Part shown: positions 39,983 through 60,062 of the stretch, in pieces
Layout: every line of letters starts with the position of its first letter
Numbering within the stretch: position 1 is the stretch's first letter
Source: a virus
Taxonomy: Duplodnaviria > Caudoviricetes
Length of the DNA: 60,550 nt
IMG/VR virus record: IMGVR_UViG_3300042509_001483
Span: 1-60,550 of that record
Reading direction: 5' to 3' (one strand)
Position numbers and translations under genes: made by a program
The notes under the pieces: model-generated
What the model was told of the DNA's origin: nothing
The model's input: only the letters and a program-made list of their open reading frames with translations
Database searches by the model: none

Positions 39983-40229
39983 CGGTTATCTCTTCCCCTG
40001 GGCGACCAGGGGTTTATATAGCCCTCTTTCTGATACGAATTCGTATCGCGCGTGCGGGTTTTAGGCTTTCCGCGGCACCGATTCGCCAAGAATCGTTCTC
40101 GCGCAAGGGATCTCAGCGATTGCTCGTCAAGCTGGACGTTAAACGCAGCAGACAACTCGGCGGTTGGTCACGACCTTGGCATCCACACTTCAGTGGTGTA
40201 AGCCCAATCTCACCCTACGGAGTAACACC

Positions 40230-46451: not shown

Positions 46452-46511
46452 AGATCCTGGGCATCCTTACGGTGTAAGTCCCAGGTCTTATCCATCAACT
46501 CAACTCAACTC

Positions 46512-46697
46512 ATGTCTGCTTACGTCAACTACCTCAACATGTTTGATCGCATCAATCTTGCTGCCTGCGCAAAGCGCAGAGCAACAGACAATCTATTGGA
46601 TTCAACTCGTTGGGAAGGCGAGTACGACACAGCACGTCTGTGGATGAAGTACCGCCTTATCAAGACCACCACTCATTCCTACATCGACGAAGACTGA
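46512..46697 (+). CDS. Hypothetical protein
   Basis: (CAACT)3 leader after element A. Confidence 0.65.
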   Translation: MSAYVNYLNMFDRINLAACAKRRATDNLLDSTRWEGEYDTARLWMKYRLIKTTTHSYIDED

Positions 46698-46957
46698 TGA
46701 CTGTACTTGCAATCGAAAACATTGTCTTTGGTGATCACAATGCAACAGTTACAGCAGTTGTTGAAGACATGCGCCTGCTCTATCGGGCGACTCGCTTCGA
46801 GCCTGAAGAATGGGCTCCTGCATTGTGTCAAGCAACTATTGAGCTGGATCCAGAGGAACCGATTCCTCTTGACGAAGATGGCTTCTGCAGCTATCTTGAT
46901 CAGCTCGATCCTCACTGGCAACTCGTTGACACCTCTGACTACGCTCTAGATTCATGA
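46697..46957 (+). CDS. Hypothetical acidic protein
   Basis: TGATG coupling; MTVLAIEN... Confidence 0.6.
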   Translation: MTVLAIENIVFGDHNATVTAVVEDMRLLYRATRFEPEEWAPALCQATIELDPEEPIPLDEDGFCSYLDQLDPHWQLVDTSDYALDS

Positions 46958-47157
46958 TTGGTTTTTCAATTGAATTCAAACGCTGGTACTTTGTACTGCG
47001 TGGTCCCAAGGGTCGAGTATACCTGGCGACTGGTTTTGCTAAACGCATGCCAGTCATAACACTGACTGGTGCTTACATGCTAGACCAGTGCATTGGTACA
47101 TGGCCTGGTGATGAGACTGATGAAGAACTTCTTGATCAGTTGAAAGACATCCGTTAA
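46954..47157 (+). CDS. Hypothetical protein
   Basis: ATGA coupling. Confidence 0.55.
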   Translation: MIGFSIEFKRWYFVLRGPKGRVYLATGFAKRMPVITLTGAYMLDQCIGTWPGDETDEELLDQLKDIR

Positions 47158-47212
47158 TCAAACGTCCTGGACATGACGCTAAACTGTCCTTTCCATTTAC
47201 CTACACCACACC

Positions 47213-48949
47213 ATGAAATTCGCTCTGCCTTCTAACCTTCAGACTGAACTCTTGGCTTATGACCCAAAGCTTAAGGCTTTGGCTAAGCAAGCTAACAAAC
47301 CAGCAGCCAAGAAACCTACGTATCCACTTGGCAAGATTCCTTGTTTGATACCAACGCACATTGTGCGTGAAACTGATCAGCAAGATGCAATTGCTCAGAT
47401 CAATCAGCGTCCAGCACCACAGCGTTATCAAGTCTTTACCAGGCCTGTAGATGTGGCAACACCACAGGCTAGGCTCAAGGTCATTGCCATCTTGTATCAC
47501 TACGAACAGGTGTGGTACGCGGCATGGTTACCTTCCAAGCAAGAGAAAGATCAATATGTGTATGGCCATGCTTACGCATTCAAGAACACATCAACTACAC
47601 AGAAGATTGCACCAACTTGGATATGGAATAGCAAAGATGATTGCGTTGTTCACGACATTGGGCGTGGCTCGCAACTTTTTGTCTACACCAATACAGCAAC
47701 CATAGAAGATATCCGTGGGAAAGATTACGATAGCTGGCGCAGTTACCCATGGCGAGCAGGTAACCTTTACTGCCAAAAGGGTTATACAATTCGTGATAAT
47801 GTTGTCAATGAATTTGATAACAGCCTGAGGGAAGATCTCCCAACATGGGAGGATTCACGTGGATTGTTTGATCGTATACGTTGCAAGAATATCTTTGATG
47901 CAGCAAACATACCATCAATGATGTCAAAGCATCTTGATGAACGTCAAGGCTTGACTGTTGATAACTTCATTGCTGCTTCACTTGCATTCAAAGAAGAACA
48001 TGGTTATAGCTCCATGACATACTCCGTTGTCACAAAAATCCAACACATTGTTACTAAGCCTACCATCAAGAAACTATTGCAAGCAGAGTTAAACCGTAGC
48101 GTTGATGCATACAATGATCCTAATAACAAACAACAGCAACCTATTAAGCAAGGCTTTGCAACCTTTGTTCAAATCATTAATTCAATTGAATGGATCAATA
48201 ACATTTGGCCAGACTGCCCTATTGATTACTATCAGACTTACTTCAAGGAGCTTAAGTATCTTCGCTTGACTGAAGTGCGTATAGGTAGTTCAGTTATACA
48301 AGATACAAACTTAATCAACTGGCTGCGTGAACACATGCCCATTGCATCGTTGTTTACAATCATGCGTAAGTACTTGGATAGACAACTCACTGAATACAAT
48401 GGCCGTTGGGTTGATAACGAGGTTGGCTACCAGCGTCAACGCTTTGGTGAACTCAACGATACATTCTCCATGATGCTTAAGATCCTGCATGTTGGTAATA
48501 CACTGGAGCCACCGAAGCGTTGGCGTTTGACTGAGTTCCATGACTACGTACAATCCGAAGCATGGAAGATTGAGAATCCAAAGGAATCTCTACGGCAAGA
48601 TCTATTCCCTGAACCTATTAAAGTTACACGTCTTGATAAAGTATGGACATTCTTCCAGCCTCATGACACACATCAACTATCCATGTGGGGTCAAGCCGTA
48701 CGTAATTGCGTTGGCTCTGCATCCCACTATGCCGATGACATCAAGAAACGTAAGCACTTCATTGTGTTATGTATGATTGATAACAAACCCACCTTCACAA
48801 TTCAATTGGTTGTGGACCAGGGTATGATGTCGGTTAAGCAGATTGCTGGCGTTGGCAATCGGAGTCTTGACGCATGGGAGCGCGATGCTTACACGGAAGC
48901 TTTCCGTGAGGTCTTGCAGCAACGCGAGAAGCAGCTAGCATGTAGCTGA
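47213..48949 (+). CDS. PcfJ-like domain protein
   Basis: C-terminal EFHDYV...QLSMWGQAVRNCVGS..Y...TIQL...QIAG..N. Confidence 0.75.
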   Translation: MKFALPSNLQTELLAYDPKLKALAKQANKPAAKKPTYPLGKIPCLIPTHIVRETDQQDAIAQINQRPAPQRYQVFTRPVDVATPQARLKVIAILYHYEQVWYAAWLPSKQEKDQYVYGHAYAFKNTSTTQKIAPTWIWNSKDDCVVHDIGRGSQLFVYTNTATIEDIRGKDYDSWRSYPWRAGNLYCQKGYTIRDNVVNEFDNSLREDLPTWEDSRGLFDRIRCKNIFDAANIPSMMSKHLDERQGLTVDNFIAASLAFKEEHGYSSMTYSVVTKIQHIVTKPTIKKLLQAELNRSVDAYNDPNNKQQQPIKQGFATFVQIINSIEWINNIWPDCPIDYYQTYFKELKYLRLTEVRIGSSVIQDTNLINWLREHMPIASLFTIMRKYLDRQLTEYNGRWVDNEVGYQRQRFGELNDTFSMMLKILHVGNTLEPPKRWRLTEFHDYVQSEAWKIENPKESLRQDLFPEPIKVTRLDKVWTFFQPHDTHQLSMWGQAVRNCVGSASHYADDIKKRKHFIVLCMIDNKPTFTIQLVVDQGMMSVKQIAGVGNRSLDAWERDAYTEAFREVLQQREKQLACS

Positions 48950-48963
48950 GTCCGCACGGCTTA

Positions 48964-48996
48964 CCAGCCTTAGCCTCGTTACTAAGGCTGGTTTCT
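48964..48996 (+). terminator. Intrinsic terminator
   Basis: accagccttag-cctcgtta-ctaaggctggt-ttct. Confidence 0.65.
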
Positions 48997-49000
48997 ATCC

Positions 49001-49243
49001 ATGACTGACTACACCGACGATCAACTACTTGCCATGGCTATGGCCAACATTGGTGAGTACATCACAGACAACTCACCACAGTACATCTTGATTGAAGAAG
49101 ATCCTCGTAATGAGGATGACTATGATAGCTGGACTTACGGAATGGAAGTCCTACCTCAAGATCACACTTGGCAGCATGCGTCAATTGACGTAAGCGTAAG
49201 CCCAAGTGATGGGGACGTAGCCCAATCGGAAGTAGGCAAGTGA
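49001..49243 (+). CDS. Acidic hypothetical protein whose 3' end runs through element A into the tRNA
   Basis: ORF track. Confidence 0.5.
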   Translation: MTDYTDDQLLAMAMANIGEYITDNSPQYILIEEDPRNEDDYDSWTYGMEVLPQDHTWQHASIDVSVSPSDGDVAQSEVGK

Positions 49244-49288
49244 CTTAAAATCACTCAAGTACGAGTTCGAATCTCGTCGTCCCTACCA
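49211..49288 (+). tRNA. trnL: tRNA-Leu(UAA) with short variable loop and encoded CCA
   Basis: Acceptor GGGGACG/CGTCCCT; anticodon arm AGTGA-CTTAAAA-TCACT; T arm ACGAG-TTCGAAT-CTCGT; discriminator A then CCA. Confidence 0.92.
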
Positions 49289-49310
49289 ACCCATCCAATC
49301 AATTCACGTC

Positions 49311-49676
49311 ATGCAAATCTTTGCTGCCTTTAAACATCTCATCCCTGAACTACATGCATTCAGTGATGAAGACCAACGTTACAACCTTGGTGCTACATGG
49401 ACTGATAAGAATGGTCTCAGGGATTACCACAACCTTGAGCTGCGTTATCAGTACAACTCCGAGAAGCTTGCCATCGAGCAAGGCCAGCCGCAGCCCGATG
49501 GGTCATGGCAGTACATTGAGCCTTGCGGTCGGGTACACACCATGAGTGCTGACCGTGCCAGGGCATTCATGGAGCAGACGCAAGCGCATGCCACACTCAT
49601 GGTCAACATGCTGGATCGTCTCAAAGACTCCGGCTTGTTGGACCAGGTGGTTGACACGACTGCTCAGCCAACTTAA
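49311..49676 (+). CDS. Hypothetical protein
   Basis: ORF track. Confidence 0.65.
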   Translation: MQIFAAFKHLIPELHAFSDEDQRYNLGATWTDKNGLRDYHNLELRYQYNSEKLAIEQGQPQPDGSWQYIEPCGRVHTMSADRARAFMEQTQAHATLMVNMLDRLKDSGLLDQVVDTTAQPT

Positions 49677-49679
49677 GAT
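49651..49679 (+). promoter_or_regulatory. Sigma70-type promoter
   Basis: TTGACA-N17-TAAGAT. Confidence 0.6.
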
Positions 49680-49700
49680 TCATTTGCCAAGGAACCTATC

Positions 49701-49727
49701 GACCCCTGCGTAAGCGGGGGTCTTTCT
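49701..49727 (+). terminator. Hairpin, putative terminator
   Basis: gacccctgc-gtaa-gcgggggtc-tttct. Confidence 0.6.
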
Positions 49728-49729
49728 CT

Positions 49730-50050
49730 ATGACACACGACTCCATTGATCTTGACCTTGTTGACAAGACCATTGCGTTAATACCAAAGCAAGCTTGGAC
49801 TCAAGTGAGACAAGCAATTGTTACAGCCTTGGTTGATAACATGCCTGGCTCTGTGATCCAACATCTGACTGGTTCTTATGATGACTTTGATCGTGCAGAA
49901 GAAATTCTGTACGATTACTACGAACTTCCTGCACTGTCGCATGAACTAATTGCAGATGCATTCAAGATCATGGGCGAAGTCAATTGTCTTGAACTCCTTC
50001 ATTCATTGAACCTCACTGAAGATGAATTGCAGACAATGCAACAGCAGTAA
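49730..50050 (+). CDS. Hypothetical protein
   Basis: ORF track. Confidence 0.65.
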   Translation: MTHDSIDLDLVDKTIALIPKQAWTQVRQAIVTALVDNMPGSVIQHLTGSYDDFDRAEEILYDYYELPALSHELIADAFKIMGEVNCLELLHSLNLTEDELQTMQQQ

Positions 50051-50357
50051 CACACGCGTTACTTGTACTGAACATCTAGGGCCTGATGTAACCAAGCGTT
50101 ATTGTCGTTGTCTTGATTGTGGTTGCAAGTATCGCACTGTTGAACGGTACGAAGTTGCTAAGCCAATTCCATTAAAAGTCTACAAACCTGTTGGCACTAG
50201 GAATGGAAACTCTTTTTTGACTGACAATGATGTGTTGATGATTCGTCATCTACATCAAAAGGGATTGAGCAATGGTCAGATAGCGATACGCTATGACACT
50301 GCTCGCAGTACAATCTCACGTATTGTCAACTACAAAACTTACACCAACATCAAATGA
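50022..50357 (+). CDS. NrdR/Ogr-like Zn ribbon fused to an HTH
   Basis: MNCRQCNS.NTRV...RYCRCLDCGCKYRTVE; LTDNDVLMIR...GLSNGQIA..STISRI. Confidence 0.7.
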   Translation: MNCRQCNSSNTRVTCTEHLGPDVTKRYCRCLDCGCKYRTVERYEVAKPIPLKVYKPVGTRNGNSFLTDNDVLMIRHLHQKGLSNGQIAIRYDTARSTISRIVNYKTYTNIK

Positions 50358-50728
50358 CACAACAACACCCAATTGTCCCACCATGGGAACTTGTGCAGCA
50401 GTGGCGAGAAGCGCCCGAGTTTTCTGCGTTGTCTCCGTGTGTAATAGTAACTGTTACTACTACCAAGCTGCAAGACATTGCCACTCGCGCTGCTCAATGG
50501 GGCAGCGACCAAGAGCTAGATGCGTGCTGTGAGTGGATTAACTCATTCCAAAACAAATTTGTTCATGCCCATGATCTTCGTCTTGTCCGCCGGCCCAAGG
50601 CGCCAAGCTTGAAGGAGCAGGCGTTACAAGCACTTGCTGAAGCCGACGTTGGTCTAACAGAATTGGAGTGGCCTCAATGTTCCGACACCATCCGCCGCGC
50701 TCTTGAACAACTTCCCGACAACAACTAA
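50354..50728 (+). CDS. Conserved cyanophage hypothetical protein
   Basis: PPWELVQQW...AAQWGSDQELDACCEW...RRPKAPSLKEQAL. Confidence 0.7.
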   Translation: MTQQHPIVPPWELVQQWREAPEFSALSPCVIVTVTTTKLQDIATRAAQWGSDQELDACCEWINSFQNKFVHAHDLRLVRRPKAPSLKEQALQALAEADVGLTELEWPQCSDTIRRALEQLPDNN

Positions 50729-50736
50729 TTACTACA

Positions 50737-51036
50737 ATGACAACCAAGCCTCAATACCGTTACGCAATTGGTGATCGCGTAGCTGAACGGCCCAAGACCC
50801 ATGGGTTATTCACCAATCAACCTAAGGTTGTAGAGCGCATTGCTCAGTACCGTAAGCAACGATACGGCACTGTGGTTGGTATGACAACCAAGCTTGCTGC
50901 TAAGAACCGCAAGGTTAAATTCCTTTTGATCCAATGGGATAATCTCAAGACTCCTACTGAACATGCCAAGATGCGCATCTGTCCTATCTCTGAACTTGAT
51001 AGACTGACTAGAGAAACTATTGTGCCAGGAGAATGA
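50737..51036 (+). CDS. Hypothetical SH3-like protein
   Basis: IGDRVAE...YGTVVG...IQWD. Confidence 0.6.
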   Translation: MTTKPQYRYAIGDRVAERPKTHGLFTNQPKVVERIAQYRKQRYGTVVGMTTKLAAKNRKVKFLLIQWDNLKTPTEHAKMRICPISELDRLTRETIVPGE

Positions 51037-51239
51037 AAAGCAGGGAGGTTACTGAACTACTTGTTGTCAGTGCTGTGTCTTGCCTAATTGCTTTTGTGTT
51101 TGTTGTGTTGCTTTCTTATGGTGGAAATTCTTCTCCACCTAAAGAACGCTTTGCCATTGTTGATCAGTACCAAGGCTGTGATGTCGTACGGTACACTGAT
51201 CCTTCTAGTCGGTACCACTATCTATTGAAGTGCTCATGA
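51033..51239 (+). CDS. Small membrane protein
   Basis: TM helix; VDQYQGCDVVRY. Confidence 0.6.
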   Translation: MKSREVTELLVVSAVSCLIAFVFVVLLSYGGNSSPPKERFAIVDQYQGCDVVRYTDPSSRYHYLLKCS

Positions 51240-52753
51240 GTAATGCCAATCTTGTTTGGGTAACGCCCAATGCAGAAGAGATGATTGTCAAGATGGCACG
51301 CGTCTCTGCACCCAAGAATCAAGACAACATGGATACCGCACCCAATTTGTTGCGTTATCTGATTAAACATCAGCACTGGTCACCGTACGAAATGGCCAAC
51401 ATGTGTGTTGAAATCAACACAACACGTGCAATCTCACCGCAGATCCTTAGGCATCGGTCCTTCTCGTTCCAGGAATTTTGTTTAGCTGGCAATGTGCGTA
51501 TCACTATCTCAACCGAATCAGGAGTAGTTCAACGCTTGCCTATTGAAGAGTTGTATTCTAAATGGAATAAAAGCTCTTTCCGGGCAAGGTATGCACGTTC
51601 TTATGATCCAGAAGCGGAGCGTTTTATTTCAGCTCCCATACTTTCTGTTTATCAGTCAGGAGAAAAACCTATTTATCAGTACACTATAGAAGCGCCGGAT
51701 TCATACAAAACAATTGACTGTACTCAAGAGCATCGTATTTTCACAAAGGAAAAAGGATTTGTAGCTTTTAAAGAAGCTTATGAACAAGGTTTATCAGTTG
51801 CTTTAAATGGAAAAGAAACTTTTCCTTTGCCTTATCAAAATCCCGATGTTTTAAAAGAGAACGCTTGGATGGGTTCAACAGCTTTTGCTGAAGCGTATGG
51901 AATTAAAGATGTGACTGCACGTAAATGGTTTCGTAAACATGGCATTGTCCCTGCTAAACCAAACAATGCAGCCTCTAGTAGGATTGACATTTCATTTGAA
52001 GCAAAGAAATCTTCATTCATGAAATGGGCAAGATCTACAATGCTTCAGCAAAGCTGTGAGTGTTGTGGGCATGATGGTTCTGTATCGCGTCTTGAATTAA
52101 GCCATATTACTGCACACGATAATAACGAAGAATTATGTTTTGATGAAACTAATTTGCAAACATTATGTGCATCATGCCATCGCAAGTATGACATTGCCAT
52201 ACAAGGCAAACAGTATGGATGGACTTTAGGGATGACTGCTAAATGGGGAAAAATTACAGAAGAAAAATATTTAGGTATTCAAATGACGTACGATATTGAA
52301 ATGGACCATCCAACTCATAACTTTGTTGCCAATGGAATTGTTGTTCATAACAGTCAACGTTACGCAGACACCAGTGAACTTGGCTCAGCTATTATTCCTC
52401 ATCTGCGTCGACAAGACTTTAAGAATCGTCAAAACAGTATTGATGATTTGTCTGCTGATGCAATCAGTGGTTATTACCGTCGCATTAGCAAGTTGTATGA
52501 AGACGCTGAACATCTCTACCGTGAGATGGTTAGCAGCGGCGTTGCAAAAGAATGTGCCAGGTCTATCCTGCCACTTTCAACACAGACCCGTCTCTTTATG
52601 AACGGCACCATCAGATCTTGGATCCATTATCTACAACTGCGGACACATGAATCAACCCAACTTGAACACAGAGAAATTGCAGAAGCAATCAAAGGAATCT
52701 TCTGCAAAGAATTCCCAATCATCGGAGAGGCTGTGTTCTCAACAGATCAATGA
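51236..52753 (+). CDS. thyX: Flavin-dependent thymidylate synthase, intein-containing
   Basis: HWSPYEM, QILRHRSFSFQEF|SQRY, GVAKECARSILP, GTIRSWIHYLQLR, TQLEH. Confidence 0.95.
   Translation: MSNANLVWVTPNAEEMIVKMARVSAPKNQDNMDTAPNLLRYLIKHQHWSPYEMANMCVEINTTRAISPQILRHRSFSFQEFCLAGNVRITISTESGVVQRLPIEELYSKWNKSSFRARYARSYDPEAERFISAPILSVYQSGEKPIYQYTIEAPDSYKTIDCTQEHRIFTKEKGFVAFKEAYEQGLSVALNGKETFPLPYQNPDVLKENAWMGSTAFAEAYGIKDVTARKWFRKHGIVPAKPNNAASSRIDISFEAKKSSFMKWARSTMLQQSCECCGHDGSVSRLELSHITAHDNNEELCFDETNLQTLCASCHRKYDIAIQGKQYGWTLGMTAKWGKITEEKYLGIQMTYDIEMDHPTHNFVANGIVVHNSQRYADTSELGSAIIPHLRRQDFKNRQNSIDDLSADAISGYYRRISKLYEDAEHLYREMVSSGVAKECARSILPLSTQTRLFMNGTIRSWIHYLQLRTHESTQLEHREIAEAIKGIFCKEFPIIGEAVFSTDQ
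51479..52351 (+). mobile_element. Intein (291 aa) with an HNH endonuclease domain
   Basis: Starts CLAG; block B TQEHRIFT; ends TYDIEM..HNFVANGIVVHN then Ser+1; internal CECCG..LELSHI..NLQTLCASCH. Confidence 0.93.
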
Positions 52754-52888
52754 TCTGATTGAGAGGTACAAAGAGCCAGAGCAAGCACGCCAGTTTCTTG
52801 TGGGGGCTGGCATCATTGATGAGAATGGAGACCTCATGCCTCCATATCAAAACACCTCAACGTAAGTAACCATTACTACTAATCACTT

Positions 52889-53104
52889 ATGACACGACAA
52901 AAACTTGTCAATTGTTCCACTGTTACTCAAAAAGTATATGATGCATTTTGGCCACTTGGTATGTATCCAGATGATATGGATGCTGATAATCTTGCGCTAG
53001 CTTTGCGAGTTGTTGCTAGTCAGCTTGGTTATGAGCTGTTGGGTGTGCGTGTTGTCGACTGCTCACAACTCCTTGCTATCGCCGATGAACTTGAATCTCA
53101 GTAA
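52889..53104 (+). CDS. Hypothetical protein
   Basis: LALALRVVA...LLAIADELE. Confidence 0.65.
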   Translation: MTRQKLVNCSTVTQKVYDAFWPLGMYPDDMDADNLALALRVVASQLGYELLGVRVVDCSQLLAIADELESQ

Positions 53105-53220
53105 GCATTAAAAGGTTGCAGCACTTTGCTTCTTCAGTTCCGTGACGGCATGCTTGGACTCCACATCCTTGCGTGCCAGCTTTTTCCGTTTGTCCACCAG
53201 GTAGACGATCAGTGCCTTGT

Positions 53221-53373
53221 TCATTTGATTTGTCCTCCAGTGACATAAGGAAAGTAACAAATGTTACGGTAGGTCAGGCAAAGCCATGGACGGTGTGCTA
53301 AGTTCCACCAGGCTTTGTCCTTCCTGGCCTGATCCTCTTGGTTGTATTTGCAACCACGATACGTTAACGTCAT
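53221..53373 (-). CDS. DUF4278 small protein
   Basis: MTLTYRGCKY...LTYRNICY, a doubled LxYRG-type motif. Confidence 0.75.
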   Translation of the reverse strand: MTLTYRGCKYNQEDQARKDKAWWNLAHRPWLCLTYRNICYFPYVTGGQIK

Positions 53374-53380
53374 GGCTTTA

Positions 53381-53394
53381 GTATCTATTGATAC
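53381..53394. promoter_or_regulatory. NtcA-like operator overlapping the DUF4278 gene transcription start
   Basis: GTATC-TATT-GATAC palindrome (GTA-N8-TAC) 4 nt downstream of a minus-strand TATACT -10 (53399-53404). Confidence 0.55.
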
Positions 53395-53456
53395 GGAAAG
53401 TATATGATGATTGATGTATATGATGTCGTTCACCATGTAACACAACTCAAGGTTTA

Positions 53457-53756
53457 ATGAGAGGTTTTAGTTCAACTCAACAATCAACAAAGTCAGCATC
53501 CTATTGGGTTGCTTCTTACACCAAGGACAATGAGGATGAACCACTTGGCATTCACAAAAAAGTTTTGTCCTACAAACCAGGGCAAGACAAAGAACTCTTG
53601 ATGATTCGTTACTGCAATTCAATCATGAAGATCAACCAAAACATATGGGAGATCCTGGTCCACCAAGGACCAGGTGATACTCCAGACTCTGGTGACCAAA
53701 TTGTTTTACGTCTATCCAGGGGAAAATTTAACGGTTCTATACAAATCAAAAACTAA
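53457..53756 (+). CDS. Hypothetical protein
   Basis: ORF track. Confidence 0.6.
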   Translation: MRGFSSTQQSTKSASYWVASYTKDNEDEPLGIHKKVLSYKPGQDKELLMIRYCNSIMKINQNIWEILVHQGPGDTPDSGDQIVLRLSRGKFNGSIQIKN

Positions 53757-53776
53757 ACAAACTTGGAGCTACACTA

Positions 53777-54100
53777 ATGAGCCTTGACGTACATCTTGAA
53801 GACGAAAGCGGTAATAATCTTTACTGGCGCAACATCACCCACAATCTCACAACAATGGCCAGCACGGCTGGTCTTTATGAGTGTCTATGGCGCCCTGAAG
53901 AAATTGGCATTACAACTGCGCATCAGTTAATTGAACCTATCTCCAAAGGCATTGCATTCCTAGCAATGCACCGCCATTTGTGCGAACAAGACAACTCGCC
54001 TAACGGCTGGGGTACTTGGCAAGGTTTGTATGATTTCTGCTGTGACTATCTCAAAGCTTGTACTGAACATCCTTTAGCAACCATTCGCGTATGTCGATAA
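53777..54100 (+). CDS. Conserved phage hypothetical protein
   Basis: MSLDV.L...NITHNL..MA..AGLY..LWRPEE...PNGWG. Confidence 0.75.
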   Translation: MSLDVHLEDESGNNLYWRNITHNLTTMASTAGLYECLWRPEEIGITTAHQLIEPISKGIAFLAMHRHLCEQDNSPNGWGTWQGLYDFCCDYLKACTEHPLATIRVCR

Positions 54101-54207
54101 CTAACAAACTTTGCCGCGCACTAGAACAGTTTAACGACTGATTACTTTTATTAATATATCCGTCCTGGGTATGACGCTAAACTGCCTTCTCAACTCAACT
54201 CAACACC

Positions 54208-54972
54208 ATGAAACTCCTCAAGTTTTCCACCGGTAACGGCAAGCTCAAGAACCGTCTCATCTTCAATCTGCCTGCTGGGTACGCATGCCCTCACGCTGGT
54301 GTATGCAAGACCTTTGCTGATCGCACCACAGGGCAGATCACTGACTTGCCTCAGTACACAGGCGTGACGGCAACACAGGACTACCGTTGCTTTGCTGCCA
54401 TGGCAGAGACACGGCCTACTGTACGGGAAGCACGCTGGCACAACTGGGATTTGTTGCGTGAAACTATTCACATGAATGGGAACCAGGCTGTGCTACTGCG
54501 TGATCTGATCGACCTATCACTTTTAATGCAACCAGCTAAAGATCTGATTCGCATCCATGAGTCTGGTGACTTCTGGACAGAAAACTATATGCGGGCTTGG
54601 ATCATGGTTGCCCAAGGTCGACCACAACAAAAGTTCTACGCATACACTAAGTCTCTTGGTATGTGGTACAACTTGCGTGACATTATTCCTTCCAACTTCT
54701 ATCTCACTGCATCACACGGTGGTACGCTTGACTACTTGATCGACAAGTATCCTGAGGTGTACCAGCGGGTTGCTCATGTTGTGTACACAGAAGAGGAAGC
54801 AGCAGAGCGTGGGCTATCTGTGGATCATGACGACAGCCATTGTTTAGGTGACAAGCCGTTTGCACTCTTGGTCCATGGATCCCAACGTGCTGGGTCCGAT
54901 GCCATGGCTGCTATCACACAACGCAAGAAAGAGGGCAAGTTCGTAGGGTACAGCAAGAAGAATCAGAAATGA
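54208..54972 (+). CDS. GP88-family protein (radical-SAM-like fold)
   Basis: GNGKL...FNLPAG.ACP.AG.C, CFA, RIHESGDF, FYAYTKS. Confidence 0.75.
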   Translation: MKLLKFSTGNGKLKNRLIFNLPAGYACPHAGVCKTFADRTTGQITDLPQYTGVTATQDYRCFAAMAETRPTVREARWHNWDLLRETIHMNGNQAVLLRDLIDLSLLMQPAKDLIRIHESGDFWTENYMRAWIMVAQGRPQQKFYAYTKSLGMWYNLRDIIPSNFYLTASHGGTLDYLIDKYPEVYQRVAHVVYTEEEAAERGLSVDHDDSHCLGDKPFALLVHGSQRAGSDAMAAITQRKKEGKFVGYSKKNQK

Positions 54973-55034
54973 TTCCGTAGGCACTTGCGGATCAGGTGAA
55001 ATCAGATATCATCTATCTGTCTTTCATCTGATCC

Positions 55035-55268
55035 ATGGCTTACGTCATTGCCTGTACCCGCTGGGGTGTACCGCACGCCATTACAGCAAACAGTAAAACC
55101 AATAGGTTTGAGTTGATTCCACTAGACTCTGATGTAGCTTTAAACAAGATCTTCTCTCATCCCTACAGGGCAGGAGCACAGCAGATCTTGACGTGGATCA
55201 ACAACAATGACGAAGACCTTGCCAGTAAAGAACTCCAAGTTTCAGATGAAGCCCAATTCCGCAAGTGA
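55035..55268 (+). CDS. Hypothetical protein
   Basis: ORF track; preceded by a long hairpin at 54989-55034. Confidence 0.6.
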   Translation: MAYVIACTRWGVPHAITANSKTNRFELIPLDSDVALNKIFSHPYRAGAQQILTWINNNDEDLASKELQVSDEAQFRK

Positions 55269-57069
55269 CAAGTTTTATGTCTTTGACTTGGAATCCGATG
55301 GTCTTTATGACAAGGTTACTAAGATCCACTGCATTGTCATTTATGACATCACCGGCCAACAAACTTTTAGTTATGGGCCTGATCGCATTACTGATGCTAT
55401 TGCTCATCTGGCAACCGCTGATGTTTTGATAGGTCACAATATTCTTTTTTTCGACATTCCTGTTCTGCAAAAGTTGCATTCATTTGACTGCAAAGCACGC
55501 ATCATTGACACACTCATTTGCACACGATTGATTTGGCCTAAGGAAAAACTCTATGAACTTGACACGGAACAATATCCGCAGGTTCCACCGAACCAGCGGG
55601 GTGCTGCATCACTTAAGGCCTGGGGATGGAGATTGGCCGATCATAAGATCGACTTCAAAGACTTCTCCGAATATTCTCAGGAGATGTTGGACTACTGTAT
55701 CCAGGACGTTGCGGTTACAACGAAACTTTGGGAGCACATCACCAGGCAAAACTATCCGGAACCTGCGCTTAGGCTTGAGCACGACTTTGCTTTTGCGATT
55801 AACAAGCAAATTAGAGCAGGTGTTCCTTTTGATGTGGATGCAGCTCTTGATCTTGTGGATGATCTCCGAGCAAAAGAAGCACAGCTTGAGCCACAACTAA
55901 AAGAAATCTTTCCACCAATCAAGCACACCACATGGTTTACACCTAAGGTAAACAACGCCAAACGTGGTTACGTCAAAGGAGTTCCATTTGAAAAAGTACG
56001 ATACGAAGAATTCAATCCTGGATCTCGTGACCAAATTGCTGATCGACTCAAGAGCAAGTACGGATGGCAACCAGAAAAATTTACTGAAAAAGGAAATCCA
56101 GTCGTTGATGATGAGGTGCTAGAGCAGTTGCCTTATCCAGAGGCAAAAGCTTTGGCAGAATACATGCTTGTCAAGAAACGGCTTGGTCAGATCACTAATG
56201 GCAACAATGCTTGGCTCAAGTTGGTTAATCATGACAGCGGTCGCATGCACGGTGACGTTGTTACTAATGGTTGTATCACTGGGCGTTGTTCTCACCGATA
56301 CCCAAATATGGGTCAGGTGCCAGCAGGTTATTCGCCGTACGGTAAAGAATGCCGTGCATTATTTCATGCACCGCAAGGGTGGGACATGATTGGTATTGAT
56401 GCCAAAGCATTGGAGCTACGTTGTCTTGCAGGGTACCTTGCTTATTGGGACCAGGGGGAATATGCGCGTGTGGTTACAAATCCTGAGATTGATATCCATG
56501 TCTACAACCAAGAAAGGTTTGGTGTAGCAACACGGGACATTAGTAAGCGTTTGCTTTATGCTGTACTGTATGGTGCCGGCCACCTAAAGGCCGGTACTAT
56601 TATTAACCCGAATGAAAAAAATGAAGAAGTTCTTCGTCAACTAGGAAGAACTGCAATCAATTCATTCATGAACGGGGTGCCAGCTCTTAAATCACTTAAG
56701 GAAAAGATTGATGAAAACATTGGATCCAGGGGTTATCTCATTGGCCTTGATCGTCGTATTTTATATTGTCGCTCAGCGTTCAAAGGATTGAATGTATTAC
56801 TGCAATCAGCAGGTGCAATTCTGATGAAGCAAGTTGTTATTAACATTCACAACAACATTGAACAAAACCTTGGCTTGACCCACGGCAAAGACTGGGAACA
56901 GGTCTTGATGGTGCACGACGAAGTACAGCTTGTCTGTAATCCTCGATACACAGAACGCATCCGTGACCAAGCCATGGCAGCTTTCCCGCAAGCTCAGAAA
57001 TTCTTTGGGTTCCAATGCGAAATTGATGGCGACTCTCGTGTAGGATCCTCATGGGCTGAAACGCACTGA
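55246..57069 (+). CDS. polA: T7-type family A DNA polymerase with 3'-5' exonuclease
   Basis: FDLESDG, GHNILFFD, YCIQDV, DAKALELR, RDISKRLLYAVLYG (Tyr at the 762-equivalent position), VHDE. Confidence 0.96.
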   Translation: MKPNSASDKFYVFDLESDGLYDKVTKIHCIVIYDITGQQTFSYGPDRITDAIAHLATADVLIGHNILFFDIPVLQKLHSFDCKARIIDTLICTRLIWPKEKLYELDTEQYPQVPPNQRGAASLKAWGWRLADHKIDFKDFSEYSQEMLDYCIQDVAVTTKLWEHITRQNYPEPALRLEHDFAFAINKQIRAGVPFDVDAALDLVDDLRAKEAQLEPQLKEIFPPIKHTTWFTPKVNNAKRGYVKGVPFEKVRYEEFNPGSRDQIADRLKSKYGWQPEKFTEKGNPVVDDEVLEQLPYPEAKALAEYMLVKKRLGQITNGNNAWLKLVNHDSGRMHGDVVTNGCITGRCSHRYPNMGQVPAGYSPYGKECRALFHAPQGWDMIGIDAKALELRCLAGYLAYWDQGEYARVVTNPEIDIHVYNQERFGVATRDISKRLLYAVLYGAGHLKAGTIINPNEKNEEVLRQLGRTAINSFMNGVPALKSLKEKIDENIGSRGYLIGLDRRILYCRSAFKGLNVLLQSAGAILMKQVVINIHNNIEQNLGLTHGKDWEQVLMVHDEVQLVCNPRYTERIRDQAMAAFPQAQKFFGFQCEIDGDSRVGSSWAETH

Positions 57070-57072
57070 CCT

Positions 57073-57237
57073 ATGGACTTCCTTAACTTCAAACAACCTG
57101 TACTTAATGTTGTTTGTCCTAAGCACGGTAAACATAATCAATATATTGAAAGCACCATTAAAGACCATGAAGGACATTGGTGCATGATCTGTTGGCTTGA
57201 AAGTCTTGGTGATCCATTACCTACGATTGAAGAATAA
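57073..57237 (+). CDS. Small Cys/His protein (54 aa)
   Basis: VCPKHG...HWCMIC. Confidence 0.6.
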   Translation: MDFLNFKQPVLNVVCPKHGKHNQYIESTIKDHEGHWCMICWLESLGDPLPTIEE

Positions 57238-57329
57238 ATCCATCTCCTAATTTGGAGAAAATTAGGAGATGATTAGGAGTTCGTCCTAAGCATGACGTTA
57301 AACTGCTTTAACACAACCCTTTTGATCCG

Positions 57330-58145
57330 ATGAATTACGTTGATGTTTGCGCAATCCTGAACGAGAATCCTCGTCAGGTGTACACCAGTTCAACCACATT
57401 CAACTACTGTGCTGAAGTAACACTTCCGCCGGTTGGCAACAAAGCTCCTACCATCCTTGTCCTCAATGTTTACGGGAAAACCGGAGATGCTTTCAGATCC
57501 CTCAACAAAGGAGACCGTGTGTACATTCACGGCTCCAAGCTACGGTTTGATCTCGAATCAAAGACGTACTCGCTCAATGGAGGAGTTGTTGCTCAAGTTA
57601 CTGAAGCATTCCCTGTCTTCAACGACGTTATCTTGACGGGTCGTTGCATCAAGGACATTGACCAAACAGATGCACGTGCCTTCAAGACAACTGCAGATGG
57701 TTTGATGATTGCCAATCAAACACTGTCAGTTAACACTGGACGCAATCAAGCTGATCTGTTTAACTTTTACGCAATCAACACTGCACAAGATAAGTTCAAT
57801 CAAGCTGAACTTCTTGTGAACATGACGCGTAAAGGCACTGGTCTTACCATTCGTGCCAGGATTGTGACCGATGCCTGGACTGATAAAGAAACCAACCAGC
57901 GCCGTAGCGTTACCAAGCTGCAGCTTGTGCAGATGACACTGGCCCCTAAGACAAGTGAGTCTCAAACAAAACAAGTGACATCCCAAACAACCGTGGCATC
58001 CACGGAGAATGTTGCTAGTCTATGGGGCGGCAAGACCGTTGAGGAGACCAGTGATCCCTGGAATGCAGGCCCCAACACTGGGCTGCCTGATCTCCCCGGT
58101 CAGTACGGCAACGCACCTGAATTCAACGACGAACCCCCATTTTGA
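57330..58145 (+). CDS. ssb: Single-stranded DNA-binding protein, probably two OB folds
   Basis: LNKGDRVYIHG; NDVILTGR...KGTGLTI...DAWTDKETNQRRS; acidic C-terminus NDEPPF. Confidence 0.8.
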   Translation: MNYVDVCAILNENPRQVYTSSTTFNYCAEVTLPPVGNKAPTILVLNVYGKTGDAFRSLNKGDRVYIHGSKLRFDLESKTYSLNGGVVAQVTEAFPVFNDVILTGRCIKDIDQTDARAFKTTADGLMIANQTLSVNTGRNQADLFNFYAINTAQDKFNQAELLVNMTRKGTGLTIRARIVTDAWTDKETNQRRSVTKLQLVQMTLAPKTSESQTKQVTSQTTVASTENVASLWGGKTVEETSDPWNAGPNTGLPDLPGQYGNAPEFNDEPPF

Positions 58146-58399
58146 TGTCAACTCAACCCGAAGATCAATTTACTCTTCTCTATGAGGACGGTAAACGAAA
58201 GGTGCTGCATGAGTTCCAGTGCATTGGTACGGATGAAATTGTTGATGAGTTCATTAACTTCATGCGTGGTGTTGGCCATCTTGAACTGAACATCATCGAG
58301 CGCATGCACGAAATCTCAAAACAGTATCTTGAACTTTATAACTCAAACAAAGAAATGTTTCTTGAGCTTCAACAAGAAGAACTCAACGTAATAGAGTAA
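58142..58399 (+). CDS. Hypothetical protein
   Basis: EF....DEIVDEFINFMRGVG. Confidence 0.6.
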   Translation: MMSTQPEDQFTLLYEDGKRKVLHEFQCIGTDEIVDEFINFMRGVGHLELNIIERMHEISKQYLELYNSNKEMFLELQQEELNVIE

Positions 58400-58453
58400 C
58401 TTCTCGTCCTCTGGTATGACGTTAAACTGCCTGTCTTTAACTACGAAACAATC

Positions 58454-59557
58454 ATGCTTACAGCTCCGACTGACATGATGAGTGAATCCTGGATGGATGA
58501 ACTCGAAGCTGAAACAACCTCTGCCCCTTCTCTGAAAACACCTAACAAAATGACCGCCAACAAAACCTCTGCACTTGCAACACGTGGACTGGATTCCTTC
58601 AAACTTTTTCAAGATAAAAAGTTTGTGTCCGGATACCAGAATCTCGTTACCATCCAACCTCTCAACAAATCAAAGATCCGAGGTTGGTTCGTGCGGAAGT
58701 CAGACCTTGACACTTGTGGATGGAACGCCACTGAAGATCAATTTGCTAAGGGTTCAGTTATCTGGGACTACAAGCAAACTTTTGGTATGGCTCCCAACAC
58801 TTCAATTGAAGAAGGACTCAATTTCACTGAGCCTCGTTTGCAGATCCTTCTACGTTCTCCCCTTATGGTTGAGGAAACCACAGGGATGAGGCAGACGATC
58901 GGGACCTTTGAGGATCCTGATGTCAAGGCTGCATTTGATAACGACAAGCTAGCCGCTGATCTTGCCAATAGCAAAGGTGAGATGTACAAGCGTAAGTACA
59001 GTGTACGTACAAAGTACCTGGTCTATGTCCTGACCGAGGACAACAAGCGTGCTCATAAGATCCCGATGGTGCTCACACTCAAAGGTCTTAACGGTACTGA
59101 TGTCAGCGACAAAGTCAAGCTGTACGAAAAGGAGATGTCCAAATGCTTGAGCAAAGCGCTGGACTCTGAGGTACCTCTGGCATTCAACGAGAAGTTCTAT
59201 GCCACCACTGTGTTTGTACCCGTGCTTGCCAACGAGATGCGAGGTGCTAACAACGTAGAGATCTGTGCAATTGAATCGTTTGAGATTCCTGATTACAGCT
59301 CTCAAGATGAAGCGATTATTTCGCTTAATCGCCTCAGCATCCCTGATGAAGATCGTGAATCAACCTGGAAGTATCAGGACATGTTCAGTGATTACATCAA
59401 TCAACATGCACGGCAAGACGCACAAAAGCTTGGCGGTGCATACGGAATCAAAGAAGGAGTTGAGATCCTTCCTGTCTCTCGGACCACGGACACAGTTGAT
59501 GTGAAGGCATTGCCTGCCCGTGATCCGCTGACTGGTGAGGATGCAGACCTGATGTGA
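58454..59557 (+). CDS. Hypothetical replication-module protein (possibly DUF5895-like)
   Basis: PRLQILLRSPL...KYLVYVL..DN..AH.IP.VLTLKG; adjacent to ssb. Confidence 0.5.
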   Translation: MLTAPTDMMSESWMDELEAETTSAPSLKTPNKMTANKTSALATRGLDSFKLFQDKKFVSGYQNLVTIQPLNKSKIRGWFVRKSDLDTCGWNATEDQFAKGSVIWDYKQTFGMAPNTSIEEGLNFTEPRLQILLRSPLMVEETTGMRQTIGTFEDPDVKAAFDNDKLAADLANSKGEMYKRKYSVRTKYLVYVLTEDNKRAHKIPMVLTLKGLNGTDVSDKVKLYEKEMSKCLSKALDSEVPLAFNEKFYATTVFVPVLANEMRGANNVEICAIESFEIPDYSSQDEAIISLNRLSIPDEDRESTWKYQDMFSDYINQHARQDAQKLGGAYGIKEGVEILPVSRTTDTVDVKALPARDPLTGEDADLM

Positions 59558-59785
59558 TTAGTCTTTGACTGCAGGGAGCTTGTGTGAGTAATTCTCTTGC
59601 ATAAGCTCCATAGCATCAGCTACTAATCCTTTGATTGCAATCTGACGCTGCGTGGCAATCTTCGTTAGTAAGGTTGCCATTTCTTTTAGCTCACTCATAG
59701 AGTTGCAATCATTGATGCTACGTATCATCTTTTCTTGCCAGAACATATCCTCTGGCGACATTTCAAATTTCAACATGTTATTCAA
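59558..59785 (-). CDS. Second NblA-like small helical protein
   Basis: FEMSPEDMFWQEKMIRSINDCNSMSELKEMATLLTKIATQRQIAIKGLV; two-helix pattern with the conserved E..F spacing. Confidence 0.45.
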   Translation of the reverse strand: MNNMLKFEMSPEDMFWQEKMIRSINDCNSMSELKEMATLLTKIATQRQIAIKGLVADAMELMQENYSHKLPAVKD

Positions 59786-59855
59786 TTGGTTGAGTTTATT
59801 CTACGCCTTCATTTAAACTTGATTTGATTCCACTGAATGTGTTAAGGATTACCAA

Positions 59856-60059: not shown

Positions 60060-60062
60060 CTC

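What the first reader, a model, noticed from the sequence alone, without database searches (positions are those of the whole stretch)
47163..58431. Family P: a 27-nt H-type pseudoknot 20-23 nt upstream of the PcfJ-like, GP88, SSB and 58454 genes
Seen: CGTC/GACG stem 1, invariant YTAAAC linker, and a stem 2 that changes in concert (GGACA/TGTCC, GGGTA/TGCCT, AAGCA/TGCTT, GGTA/TGCC; fifth copy GCTG/CAGC at 40125). Spacing to the ATG is nearly fixed. Known: T4/T2 gene 32 (SSB) mRNA uses a leader pseudoknot for autogenous translational control, and compact pseudoknots block 5'-3' exonucleases in RNA viruses. Inference: a shared operator (possibly SSB-nucleating) or an exonuclease-resistant RNA coordinating larger replication-related genes.
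Basis: partly seen in the sequence, partly recalled or inferred. Interest (0 to 1): 0.8.

Follow-up and report, generated by a model that had tools for sequence, protein, structure and literature searches.

The report
Coremin-like RNA knot before cyanophage genes
Four genes of this lake cyanophage are each preceded by the same tiny knotted RNA fold, which also occurs in many unrelated phages and bacteria and shares its core with a plant-virus RNA that physically stops RNA-degrading enzymes, so it probably shields or insulates the message behind it.

Summary
Four copies of a 27-28-nt H-type pseudoknot (CGUC-CU-S2a-U-GACG-YUAAAC-S2b) lie 23, 20, 21 and 21 nt before the ATGs of the PcfJ-like, GP88, SSB and DUF5895 genes; none is expected by chance. 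Across S-EIV1 and ten uncultured relatives both stems covary: 6 of 9 pairs show compensatory changes and 97% of cells are paired. G-U far outnumbers A-C, so the sense RNA folds. The fifth copy (40125) is a divergent but conserved subtype.

The knot is not specific to this phage. Scans that left stem 2 free found it in over 117 viral contigs and many bacterial genomes. Named carriers include Staphylococcus, Lactobacillus, Geobacillus, Arthrobacter and Nostoc phages and S-CRM01. Rfam has no match.

Its invariant core (GUCC...GACGUUAAACU) equals the 'coremin' Xrn1-resistant RNA of plant and fungal RNA viruses. Upstream ORFs often stop exactly 5 nt before it, and almost never closer.

Best reading (about 0.5): a protein-independent 5'-to-3' roadblock that insulates the following message. 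An SSB operator is unlikely. No RNA end has been measured.

This scan met the same knot earlier on other genomes. I found no paper describing it in phages.

The parts
47163..47189 (+). Knot copy 1: S1 47163-66/47175-78 (CGTC/GACG), L1 CT, S2 47169-73/47185-89 (GGACA/TGTCC), junction T, L3 CTAAAC
   Evidence: (47.3 bits)
47190..47212 (+). 23-nt leader without G, unstructured, up to the ATG of the PcfJ-like gene
   Evidence: MFE 0 kcal/mol
47213..48949 (+). PcfJ-like gene (578 aa)
46954..47157 (+). Upstream ORF whose stop ends exactly 5 nt before S1 of copy 1
54161..54187 (+). Knot copy 2: S2 GGGTA/TGCCT (two G-U pairs), L3 CTAAAC
   Evidence: (45.4 bits)
54188..54207 (+). 20-nt leader without G (CAACT repeats) before the GP88 gene
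54208..54972 (+). GP88-family gene (254 aa)
57241..57271 (+). Stable 13-bp hairpin 10 nt upstream of knot copy 3 (-17.9 kcal/mol, z -4.2), a likely 3' structure of the DNA polymerase unit
57282..57308 (+). Knot copy 3: S2 AAGCA/TGCTT, L3 TTAAAC
   Evidence: (48.5 bits)
57309..57329 (+). 21-nt G-poor leader before SSB, conserved among relatives (TAACAC...GATC)
57330..58145 (+). SSB gene (271 aa; OB fold at residues 97-203)
58142..58399 (+). ORF whose stop ends exactly 5 nt before S1 of copy 4
58405..58432 (+). Knot copy 4 (28 nt): longer L1 (CTC/CTCT), S2 GGTA/TGCC, L3 TTAAAC
   Evidence: (27.7 bits)
58433..58453 (+). 21-nt leader before the DUF5895 gene
58454..59557 (+). DUF5895 gene (367 aa)
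40125..40149 (+). Divergent knot subtype: S1 CGTC/GACG, L1 AA, S2 GCTG/CAGC (4 bp), no junction base, L3 TTAAACG; lies in a ~250-nt non-coding stretch

Best explanation
The repeats are transcribed copies of a compact H-type RNA pseudoknot. Stem 1 is CGUC/GACG, loop 1 is CU, stem 2 is 5 bp of free sequence, the junction is one base, and an A-rich loop 3 (YUAAAC) crosses stem 1. The knot belongs to a very large, uncatalogued family of phage and bacterial knots whose invariant core is the core of the coremin (xrRNA-C) element of eukaryotic RNA viruses.

It most likely works without any protein or ligand, as a rigid obstacle to whatever moves 5' to 3' along the RNA. Candidates are a 5'-to-3' exoribonuclease of the RNase J type, a 5'-end-dependent scanning endonuclease, and ribosomes coming from the upstream ORF. 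On this reading the segment behind it (unstructured G-poor leader plus ORF) is insulated from decay and from upstream translation, and is translated by fresh initiation.

Shown: the fold (covariation), its strand, its wide distribution, its identity with the coremin core, and the spacing rules. Inferred: that it blocks nucleases or ribosomes in bacteria, and that the protected side is the downstream gene.
For: 1. Structure. On 48 gap-free copies (45 distinct) 97.3% of cells pair and 6 of 9 pairs show changes on both sides (69 cells). No shuffle of 500 reached the paired percentage or the covariation score, and slid registers pair only 20-50% (for 39 copies). Stem 1 pair 1 is CG 33, GC 7, UA 4, AU 1. 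Stem 1 pair 3 is UA 37, AU 8. Neither has a mismatch.
2. Strand. In 11 records (the window's own and 10 others) every pattern match lies on the gene strand; the 10 others have 3-5 each, and the backwards control gave 0-1. In the IMG/VR set G-U/U-G cells number 76 against about 7 A-C/C-A.
3. Breadth. With stem 2 left as N, 119 of 139 IMG/VR instances and 67 of 122 genome instances form all 5 stem-2 pairs. Re-pairing the arms gives means of 35.8 (max 52) and 23.8 (max 35).
4. Coremin. The motif is printed as GUCCGAAGACGUUAAACUAC (PMC10520033, passage). Pairing of hp1 and A16-A20 of the spacer are essential for Xrn1 stalling with pure enzyme (PMC6546385, results). A Watson-Crick variant forms a true stem 2 and stimulates -1 frameshifting, in a screen run in E. 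coli (PMC10321173, results). Coremin blocks scanning ribosomes (PMC10520033, section 15). A flaviviral xrRNA stops bacterial RNase J1 (PMC5760640, passages).
5. Spacing. An ORF of at least 50 codons ends exactly 5 nt before S1 in 21 of 42 family instances. A stop triplet sits at gap 5 in 45 of 116 IMG/VR instances, against 4-13 at the other gaps. No long ORF ends at gap 0-4 in 102 IMG/VR instances. The ATG follows at 20-23 nt in 80 of 150 instances.
6. The knot travels with the downstream gene. SSB, GP88 and PcfJ orthologues keep a knot and a conserved leader while the sequence upstream is unalignable. A separate stable hairpin precedes the knot at SSB, and at GP88 in relatives.
7. Context elsewhere. 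In S-CRM01 the knot starts within 4 nt of the 3' end of tRNA-Tyr (the 31-base match 1 nt after it) and lies 25 nt before a CDS. In S. aureus phage B166 it lies between the head-morphogenesis gene and the scaffold and capsid genes.
Against: No RNA end, half-life or nuclease assay exists for any phage copy, and no RNA run was listed for this window.

The hairpin hp2, which coremin strictly needs for Xrn1 resistance (PMC6546385, PMC10321173), is absent after all four window copies. The loop does not fit the YGAD/YGNNAD rule.

Outside the cyanophage group the knot lies nearer the upstream stop than the next start. In 60 IMG/VR instances, 30 lie 5-30 nt after the stop (4 more have the stop inside the knot), and 10 lie within 30 nt of a start. 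This fits a gene-end role at least as well.

Ordinary frameshifting pseudoknots of similar size do not stop Xrn1 (PMC10321173), so resemblance alone does not prove resistance.
Confidence: 0.5

Rival explanations
1. Gene-end module: the knot caps the 3' end of the upstream message, acting as a barrier to 3'-to-5' exonucleases or as a terminator substitute, rather than serving the gene behind it.
For: Stops lie exactly 5 nt upstream in about half of the family instances. In non-cyanophage contexts 30 of 60 knots lie 5-30 nt after the upstream stop (4 more have the stop inside the knot), but only 10 of 60 lie within 30 nt of the next start. Several bacterial copies are followed directly by a terminator. 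Earlier agents read T4-like cases this way (unchecked here).
Against: In this family the knot and leader stay with the downstream gene while the upstream flank turns over. A separate strong hairpin already stands 10 nt upstream at SSB, and 3-4 nt upstream at GP88 in relatives. No U-run follows the knot in the window. In 2 of the 4 window copies the upstream ORF ends 44 and 60 nt away. The known activity of the coremin core is directional, 5' to 3'.
Confidence: 0.2
2. Riboswitch-like aptamer: a tiny ligand-binding pseudoknot, as in preQ1-I, that tunes translation of the gene behind it.
For: Invariant unpaired bases with freely covarying stems across many phyla are the signature of an aptamer. 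In Firmicutes-type copies stem 2 abuts a GGAGG Shine-Dalgarno sequence.
Against: The downstream genes are heterogeneous: SSB, scaffold, PcfJ-like, small peptides and others. The window copies have no expression platform, since the leader is unstructured and the knot is 20-23 nt from the ATG. No Rfam riboswitch matched, even at E up to 10 on an 84-nt stretch. The same core works on pure Xrn1 without any ligand (PMC6546385).
Confidence: 0.06
3. Translational operator for the phage SSB or another phage protein, on the model of T4 gene 32.
For: One copy heads the SSB gene, and the leaders are unstructured and G-poor (6.5% G against 15% in controls). SSB-type proteins could coat such a leader. The T4 gene 32 precedent is recalled, not read here.
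Against: The same sequence occurs in phages and bacteria that lack this SSB family, and in RNA viruses of plants and fungi. Within the family it also heads four non-SSB gene types. The knot does not overlap the start region.
Confidence: 0.05
4. Recoding signal: the knot, 5 nt after a stop codon, makes ribosomes shift frame or read through.
For: The 5-nt spacing is the spacing of frameshift signals. Coremin drives 22-30% -1 frameshifting in vitro (PMC10321173).
Against: No slippery heptamer precedes the window copies. The distance from stop to the next ATG (56 or 58 nt) gives no constant frame. Two of the four window copies have no long ORF ending there.
Confidence: 0.04
5. DNA element: a promoter (TAAACT as a -10 box) or a site for a DNA-binding protein.
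For: TAAACT fits TAnnnT. BPROM-based 'promoter' features cover the motif in some S. aureus phage records. Some copies follow T-runs directly.
Against: Interleaved compensatory changes in two stems make no sense for duplex DNA. G-U far exceeds A-C. The scan predicted no sigma-70-like site at any of the four knots. In several copies a transcript starting after TAAACT would lose its own Shine-Dalgarno sequence.
Confidence: 0.03

Closest known systems
Coremin motif / xrRNA-C of beny-, cucumo- and other RNA viruses, and its Watson-Crick variant xrRNA-WCC (Dilweg et al. 2019 PMC6546385; 2023 PMC10520033; 2023 PMC10321173)
   Same: Same stem 1 sequence (CGUC/GACG). Same pyrimidine as the first loop base. 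Same spacer UUAAACU directly after stem 1. Loop-to-spacer pairing makes an H-type knot in the WCC form. Both are compact, about 27-29 nt. In coremin, pairing in stem 1 matters more than sequence, and the phage family shows the same by natural covariation.
   Different: The phage loop is 8-9 nt (C-U-N5-U), not YGAD or YGNNAD. Stem 2 is 4-6 bp and starts at U19, not 3 bp at 18-20. Position 20 is G, not A. There is no hp2 hairpin. The knot lies in DNA phages and bacteria, mostly between genes, and not in RNA-virus UTRs. The host has no Xrn1. Nuclease resistance is untested.
T2/T4/RB69 gene 32 translational operator pseudoknot (recalled, not read here)
   Same: An H-type pseudoknot upstream of an SSB gene, followed by an unstructured leader.
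   Different: The T-even operator is specific to gene 32 and is bound by its own product. Here the knot heads five or more gene families within the lineage and occurs in unrelated phages, bacteria and RNA viruses. The sequence is unrelated.
5' mRNA stabilisers of bacteria, i.e. 5'-terminal stem-loops and stalled ribosomes that block RNase J1 or RNase E entry (recalled, not read here)
   Same: Proposed job: a structure at the head of a message segment that stops 5'-end-dependent decay.
   Different: Those are lineage-specific hairpins or ribosome sites without a conserved sequence. This is one conserved pseudoknot used across phyla.
Small frameshift-stimulating pseudoknots such as BWYV (as discussed in PMC10321173)
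   Same: Size and topology: short loop 1, one junction base and an A-rich loop 3 in the minor groove of stem 1. Spacing from the A-site codon is 5-8 nt.
   Different: No slippery site, and a stop codon where the shift site would be. BWYV-type knots did not resist Xrn1.

Membership tests
Coremin / xrRNA-C | hp1 (stem 1) of 3-4 bp, CGUC/GACG, with pairing required | tested here: met
   Stem 1 is 100% paired in 45 distinct copies, with compensatory changes at 2 of 4 pairs. The coremin requirement is in PMC6546385.
Coremin / xrRNA-C | hp1 loop consensus YGAD (4 nt) or YGNNAD (6 nt) | tested here: not met
   The loop is C-U-N5-U (8 nt), or 9 nt in copy 4. Only the first pyrimidine agrees.
Coremin / xrRNA-C | Conserved spacer UUAAACUAC with A16-A20 essential | tested here: inconclusive
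   Y-W-A-A-A-C-U is conserved (AAA invariant, C and U at least 90%). Position 20 is G and pairs in stem 2, whereas A20U kills BNYVV coremin.
Coremin / xrRNA-C | Second hairpin hp2 directly downstream, required for Xrn1 resistance | tested here: not met
   Leaders fold at 0 to -3.2 kcal/mol, no better than shuffles.
Coremin / xrRNA-C | Stalls a 5'-to-3' exoribonuclease in vitro | not testable with these tools
   Needs an RNase J or Xrn1 digestion assay.
xrRNA-WCC (Watson-Crick coremin) | Antiparallel stem 2 between hp1 loop and spacer (nt 6-8 with 18-20), and G at loop position 5 | tested here: inconclusive
   A true stem 2 exists and covaries (4 of 5 pairs). It is 5 bp, shifted by one (C18 unpaired), and loop position 5 is C, not G (for the G5 requirement).
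T4 gene 32-type autogenous operator | Element confined to the SSB gene's own leader and recognised by that SSB | tested here: not met
   In this lineage it heads PcfJ-like, GP88, SSB, DUF5895 and a 37-aa peptide gene. It also occurs in unrelated phages and bacteria. Binding was not testable.
Any Rfam 15 family (including preQ1-I, pistol, hammerhead) | Match to a covariance model | tested here: not met
   No hit on the knots at gathering threshold, at E up to 10 over 11.8 kb, or at E up to 10 over 84 nt (only a 12.6-bit snoRNA match, taken as noise).
Sigma-70-type promoter | -35 and -10 hexamers at 16-18 bp | tested here: not met
   None of the 12 promoter-like sites in 46500-60550 lies at a knot; fewer sites were found than in shuffles.
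-1 programmed frameshift signal | Slippery heptamer X XXY YYZ 5-8 nt upstream of the knot | tested here: not met
   None is seen upstream of the four copies. A stop codon occupies that place in 2 of 4.

The most novel reading that the evidence does not exclude
This is a prokaryotic counterpart of viral exoribonuclease-resistant RNA. One protein-independent 27-nt knot, sharing its core with coremin of plant and fungal RNA viruses, would be used by phages of many bacterial phyla (and by some bacteria) as universal punctuation of polycistronic messages. It would stop RNase J-type exonucleases and ribosomes, so that each gene behind a knot gets its own stability and its own translation rate. The 5-nt rule after stop codons would then mark the closest approach at which a terminating ribosome leaves the knot folded.
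Probability: 0.4. Interest if true: 0.85.

Novelty: new variant of a known kind. Interest (0 to 1): 0.8.

Why it matters
If the knot really stops 5'-to-3' decay or ribosomes in bacteria, it would be the first exoribonuclease-resistant-type RNA described for DNA phages. It would also be one of the smallest and most widespread cis-acting RNA modules known.

It would explain how compact phage operons give SSB, scaffold or capsid messages their own stability without separate promoters.

It would link phages and eukaryotic RNA viruses through one RNA fold, whether by convergence or common origin. It would also give a 27-nt portable part for stabilising or insulating messages in synthetic operons.

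The question can be tested directly with a short synthetic RNA and purified RNase J.

Tried and rejected
Expression data: the look-up of sequencing runs (kind rna, window 53000-59600) listed no RNA holder, so read laying could not be used. This says nothing about expression.

Rfam: four scans gave nothing on the knot. That includes 18 bacterial loci, where a hammerhead-looking stretch after the knot in L228 was not called at gathering threshold.

Nested folding does not find the knot, because the tool has no pseudoknot model. It served only to show that no strong competing fold exists.

RNase J distribution: a search with TIGR00649 only reported that the 14 control genomes 'ring in 13, over the cut-off in 8', without naming the eight. 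That the named hosts carry RNase J therefore rests on recall. I dropped a planned class-by-class frequency test because the expected number of hits per 400 genomes was too low to be informative.

MAFFT placed the gap of the five 28-nt copies (L1 = CTC) inside stem 1. I left these 5 of 44 copies out of the gap-free alignments A2 and A3. I also left out two GP88-slot variants with a loop one base shorter (L013:74, L014:1816) and the duplicate L006 copy.

The wide scans fixed stem 1 and CTG, so they cannot inform on stem 1. About a third of the genome hits (36 of 125 with 3 or fewer stem-2 pairs) look like chance matches.

Pfam and NCBIfam gave nothing for the tiny bacterial ORF family.

Literature. 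'coremin motif' + 'phage' returned 0 papers. 'xrRNA' + 'bacteriophage' returned 42 papers; none of the 15 listed titles concerns a phage element. The motif strings GACGUUAAAC(U) and GACGTTAAAC(T) returned 19 papers, and only the coremin paper uses the string as an RNA motif, judged by title. 'pseudoknot' + 'phage genomes' + 'intergenic' + 'RNA motif' returned 6 papers, 4 listed, none relevant by title. Supplements were closed and could hold motif lists that I did not see.

Pistol-ribozyme and preQ1-I resemblances were recalled leads only. Rfam did not support them.

Full report
WHAT THE WINDOW IS. The window is a 60.5-kb fragment of an uncultured virus (IMG/VR record, 76% complete by CheckV). 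Its only nucleotide match among deposited phages is Synechococcus phage S-EIV1, at 80.5% identity over the DUF5895 gene. S-EIV1 is syntenic for the PcfJ-like, GP88, DNA polymerase, SSB and DUF5895 genes. The + strand from about 39 kb onward carries small early genes and replication genes. Pfam names the four genes of the finding PcfJ, GP88, SSB and DUF5895.

THE OBSERVATION.
- The pattern CGTCCN{7,8}GACGYTAAACTG occurs four times, at 47163, 54161, 57282 and 58405, always on the + strand. It occurred in none of 100 shuffles.
- The layout is S1a CGTC, L1 CT, S2a five bases, one junction base, S1b GACG, L3 YTAAAC, S2b five bases.
- The ATGs follow at 23, 20, 21 and 21 nt.
- Copy 4 has one extra base in L1 and only four stem-2 pairs.

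COMPARATIVE TEST OF THE FOLD.
- I fetched relatives through the SSB protein, not through the motif: ten IMG/VR loci at 77-98% SSB identity, plus S-EIV1.
- Each of the ten whole records searched besides the window's own has 3-5 pattern matches, all on the gene strand; the window's record has 3 (copy 4, with its longer loop, escaped that fixed-length pattern). The pattern read backwards gave 0-1.
- That gave 44 distinct instances with 25 distinct cores.
- On 39 gap-free copies, 98.8% of cells pair and 5 of 9 pairs change on both sides. No shuffle of 500 reached the observed pairing or covariation score.
- The GP88 slot of most relatives holds a variant with stem 1 GGAC/GUCC. S. aureus phage B166 has CGAC/GUCG, and S-CRM01 has AGUC/GACU.
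- With these added (48 copies, 45 distinct), stem 1 is 100% paired. Pair 1 shows four pair types and pair 3 shows two. Stem 2 is 95% paired with four covarying pairs. Slid registers pair only 20-50%.
- Left out of these counts: the five 28-nt copies that MAFFT gapped inside stem 1, two shorter-loop variants and one duplicate.
- G-U pairs are common and A-C is rare (76 against about 7 cells). The folding strand is therefore the sense strand, that is, the RNA.

THE FIFTH COPY. The element at 40125 scores only 9.9 bits, and only partially, against the model of the canonical type. Yet it is conserved at 91-95% in 4 of 5 relatives, in different flanks. Two of those place a G-poor leader and an ATG about 22 nt behind it. 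I read it as a real second subtype: S2 of 4 bp, no junction base, 7-nt L3. In the window it sits in a ~250-nt non-coding stretch, about 80 nt before a probable GTG start (the start is my inference).

THE FAMILY IS FAR WIDER THAN THIS PHAGE.
Of 139 distinct instances, 119 form all five stem-2 pairs. Re-pairing the arms at random gives a mean of 35.8 and at most 52.
Of 122 distinct instances, 67 are fully paired, against a mean of 23.8 and a maximum of 35. They come from Saccharibacteria, Firmicutes, Delta-, Alpha- and Betaproteobacteria, Chloroflexota, Actinomycetota, Bacteroidota and others. About a third of these genome hits look like chance.
- Named phages with the knot in unannotated gaps include many S. 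aureus temperate phages. Others are Lactobacillus phiEF-1.1 and phig1e, Geobacillus GR1, Arthrobacter Molivia, Nostoc NMeng1, S-CRM01 and a microvirus. Roseobacter SIO1 and Streptococcus Javan phages gave weaker hits (E 0.03-4) that I did not inspect.
- I saw no convincing hit in enterobacterial or Pseudomonas phages, although those dominate that collection. The three queries each carried one stem-2 variant, so this absence is weak evidence.

WHAT IS KNOWN THAT LOOKS LIKE IT.
- Rfam 15 has no matching family.
- A note from earlier agents of this scan pointed to the coremin motif. I checked this in the papers.
- Coremin is GUCCGAAGACGUUAAACUAC (PMC10520033, passage). Its hp1 stem is C1-G12, G2-C11, U3-A10, C4-G9, followed by the spacer U13 U14 A15 A16 A17 C18 U19 A20 C21.
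- Pairing in hp1 and bases A16-A20 are essential for stalling purified Xrn1, and a second hairpin hp2 is required (PMC6546385; abstract, introduction, methods and results read).
- A Watson-Crick variant pairs loop bases 6-8 with 18-20. It stimulates -1 frameshifting at about 30%, without needing hp2, in a screen done in E. coli (PMC10321173, results read).
- Coremin also slows scanning ribosomes (PMC10520033, section 15).
- A flaviviral xrRNA halts B. subtilis RNase J1, which argues for a purely mechanical block (PMC5760640, passages).
- The window copies share with coremin stem 1, the first loop pyrimidine and the spacer UUAAACU.
- They differ in loop length and rule, in a longer stem 2 shifted by one base, and in lacking hp2.
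- So the phage knot works like, and is probably related to or convergent with, coremin. It fails three of coremin's defining features and is better called a new variant.

SPACING RULES.
- In 42 family instances, an ORF of at least 50 codons ends exactly 5 nt before S1 in 21 cases. The ATG follows at 21 nt in 18 cases and at 20-23 nt in 25.
- A stop triplet at gap 5 is found in 19 of 32 family instances and 45 of 116 IMG/VR instances, against 4-13 at the other gaps in the IMG/VR set. The bacterial-genome set shows no such peak (10 of 67).
- No long ORF ends 0-4 nt before the knot in 102 IMG/VR instances.
- In the window, copies 1 and 4 obey the 5-nt rule. Copies 2 and 3 lie 60 and 44 nt after the previous ORF.
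- From recalled work on the ribosome's helicase entry, about 11 nt past the first P-site base (not read here), 5 nt is the closest distance at which a ribosome sitting on the stop codon need not open stem 1.
- I therefore read the sharp lower bound as selection to keep the knot folded, or as ribosomes being unable to pass it cheaply.
- The leaders are G-poor (6.5% G against 15% upstream of 43 other ORFs) and unstructured. This suits initiation without a Shine-Dalgarno sequence and avoids competition with the C-rich arms.

WHICH SIDE DOES THE KNOT SERVE? Points for the downstream gene, in this lineage:
- SSB, GP88 and PcfJ orthologues keep the knot and a conserved leader, while the upstream flank is unalignable.
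- In L005 and L007 an HNH-AP2 homing endonuclease gene has entered just behind the knot and leader. The knot still heads the unit.
- A strong 13-bp hairpin (-17.9 kcal/mol, z -4.2) stands 10 nt before the SSB knot, and small hairpins stand 3-4 nt before the GP88 knots of relatives. A 3' structure for the upstream unit therefore already exists.
- In S-CRM01 the knot starts within 4 nt of the 3' end of a tRNA gene (the 31-base match 1 nt after it). tRNA processing should leave a 5'-monophosphate end at that point.
- In phage B166 it lies inside the late operon just before the scaffold (DUF4355) and capsid genes.

Points against: outside the cyanophage group the knot sits closer to the upstream stop than to the next start. 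Several earlier agents read it as a gene-end cap. I keep that reading as the main rival.

OTHER READINGS.
- An SSB operator is unlikely, given the distribution of the knot.
- A riboswitch is possible in form, but there is no coherent gene set and no expression platform.
- A promoter is contradicted by the interleaved covariation, by the G-U excess and by the promoter scan.
- Recoding lacks a slippery site and a constant reading frame.

VERDICT.
- The knot is a member of a very large uncatalogued family whose nearest known relative is coremin.
- The function is inferred, not shown.
- This scan has met the same knot on other genomes.
- My searches found no paper describing it in phages or bacteria. 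The coremin survey paper holds no word beginning 'bacteri' or 'prokaryot'.

Noticed in passing
L173:3086-3151, L184, L185, L197, L222, L232, L248 (bacterial genome loci): A tiny conserved ORF, M[KR]RFxxPR[VI]AHC[SNK][DE]GC..., runs into the knot and stops at the UGA of AUGACG or the UAA of loop 3, often followed by a terminator. TRASH/YHS-like proteins and a 904-aa protein with a metal-binding N-terminus lie nearby in L206 and L222. Pfam and NCBIfam have no family for the peptide.
   Followed up: partly
L182, L210, L275 (bacterial genome loci): The knot sequence lies between direct repeats that look like CRISPR repeats, so it appears to sit in a spacer. Hosts would then be targeting this conserved phage element. 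Judged by eye from the flanks only.
   Followed up: no
L005:381-920 (and the matching place in L007): An HNH_3 + AP2 homing-endonuclease gene is inserted directly behind the knot and leader, after a two-codon remnant (MQ-stop) of the PcfJ-like gene, which restarts downstream.
   Followed up: partly
L228 (Butyrivibrio contig), directly after the knot: A hammerhead-looking stretch (CUGAUGA ... GAAA flanked by complementary arms) follows the knot. Rfam did not call it at gathering threshold.
   Followed up: partly
L206 and L248 (Anaerolineales contigs): A second, degenerate knot (GGTCCTAGGCACGACCATAAACTGCCC) follows the first in tandem.
   Followed up: no
window 21049-21291 (-): Group I intron (Rfam RF00028, 90.3 bits) within the structural-gene arm.
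   Followed up: no
window 51230-52753 (+): The ThyX (Thy1) gene is interrupted by an intein-like segment with an HNH endonuclease domain. The intein hit (26.1 bits) is below Pfam's cut-off (35.8).
   Followed up: no
window 49211-49285 (+): A tRNA gene (Rfam 60.2 bits) among the replication genes; no knot lies next to it.
   Followed up: no
window 39983-40230 (+): A ~250-nt non-coding stretch between the early ORF ending at 39982 and a probable GTG start at 40230. It holds the variant knot and several hairpin-like repeats, and its downstream part is conserved in two relatives.
   Followed up: partly
L005:14926-15036 and orthologues, beyond the window's 3' end: A fifth knot-headed gene of the lineage encodes a 37-aa hydrophobic peptide (MFESLF...). 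The window ends before this locus.
   Followed up: partly
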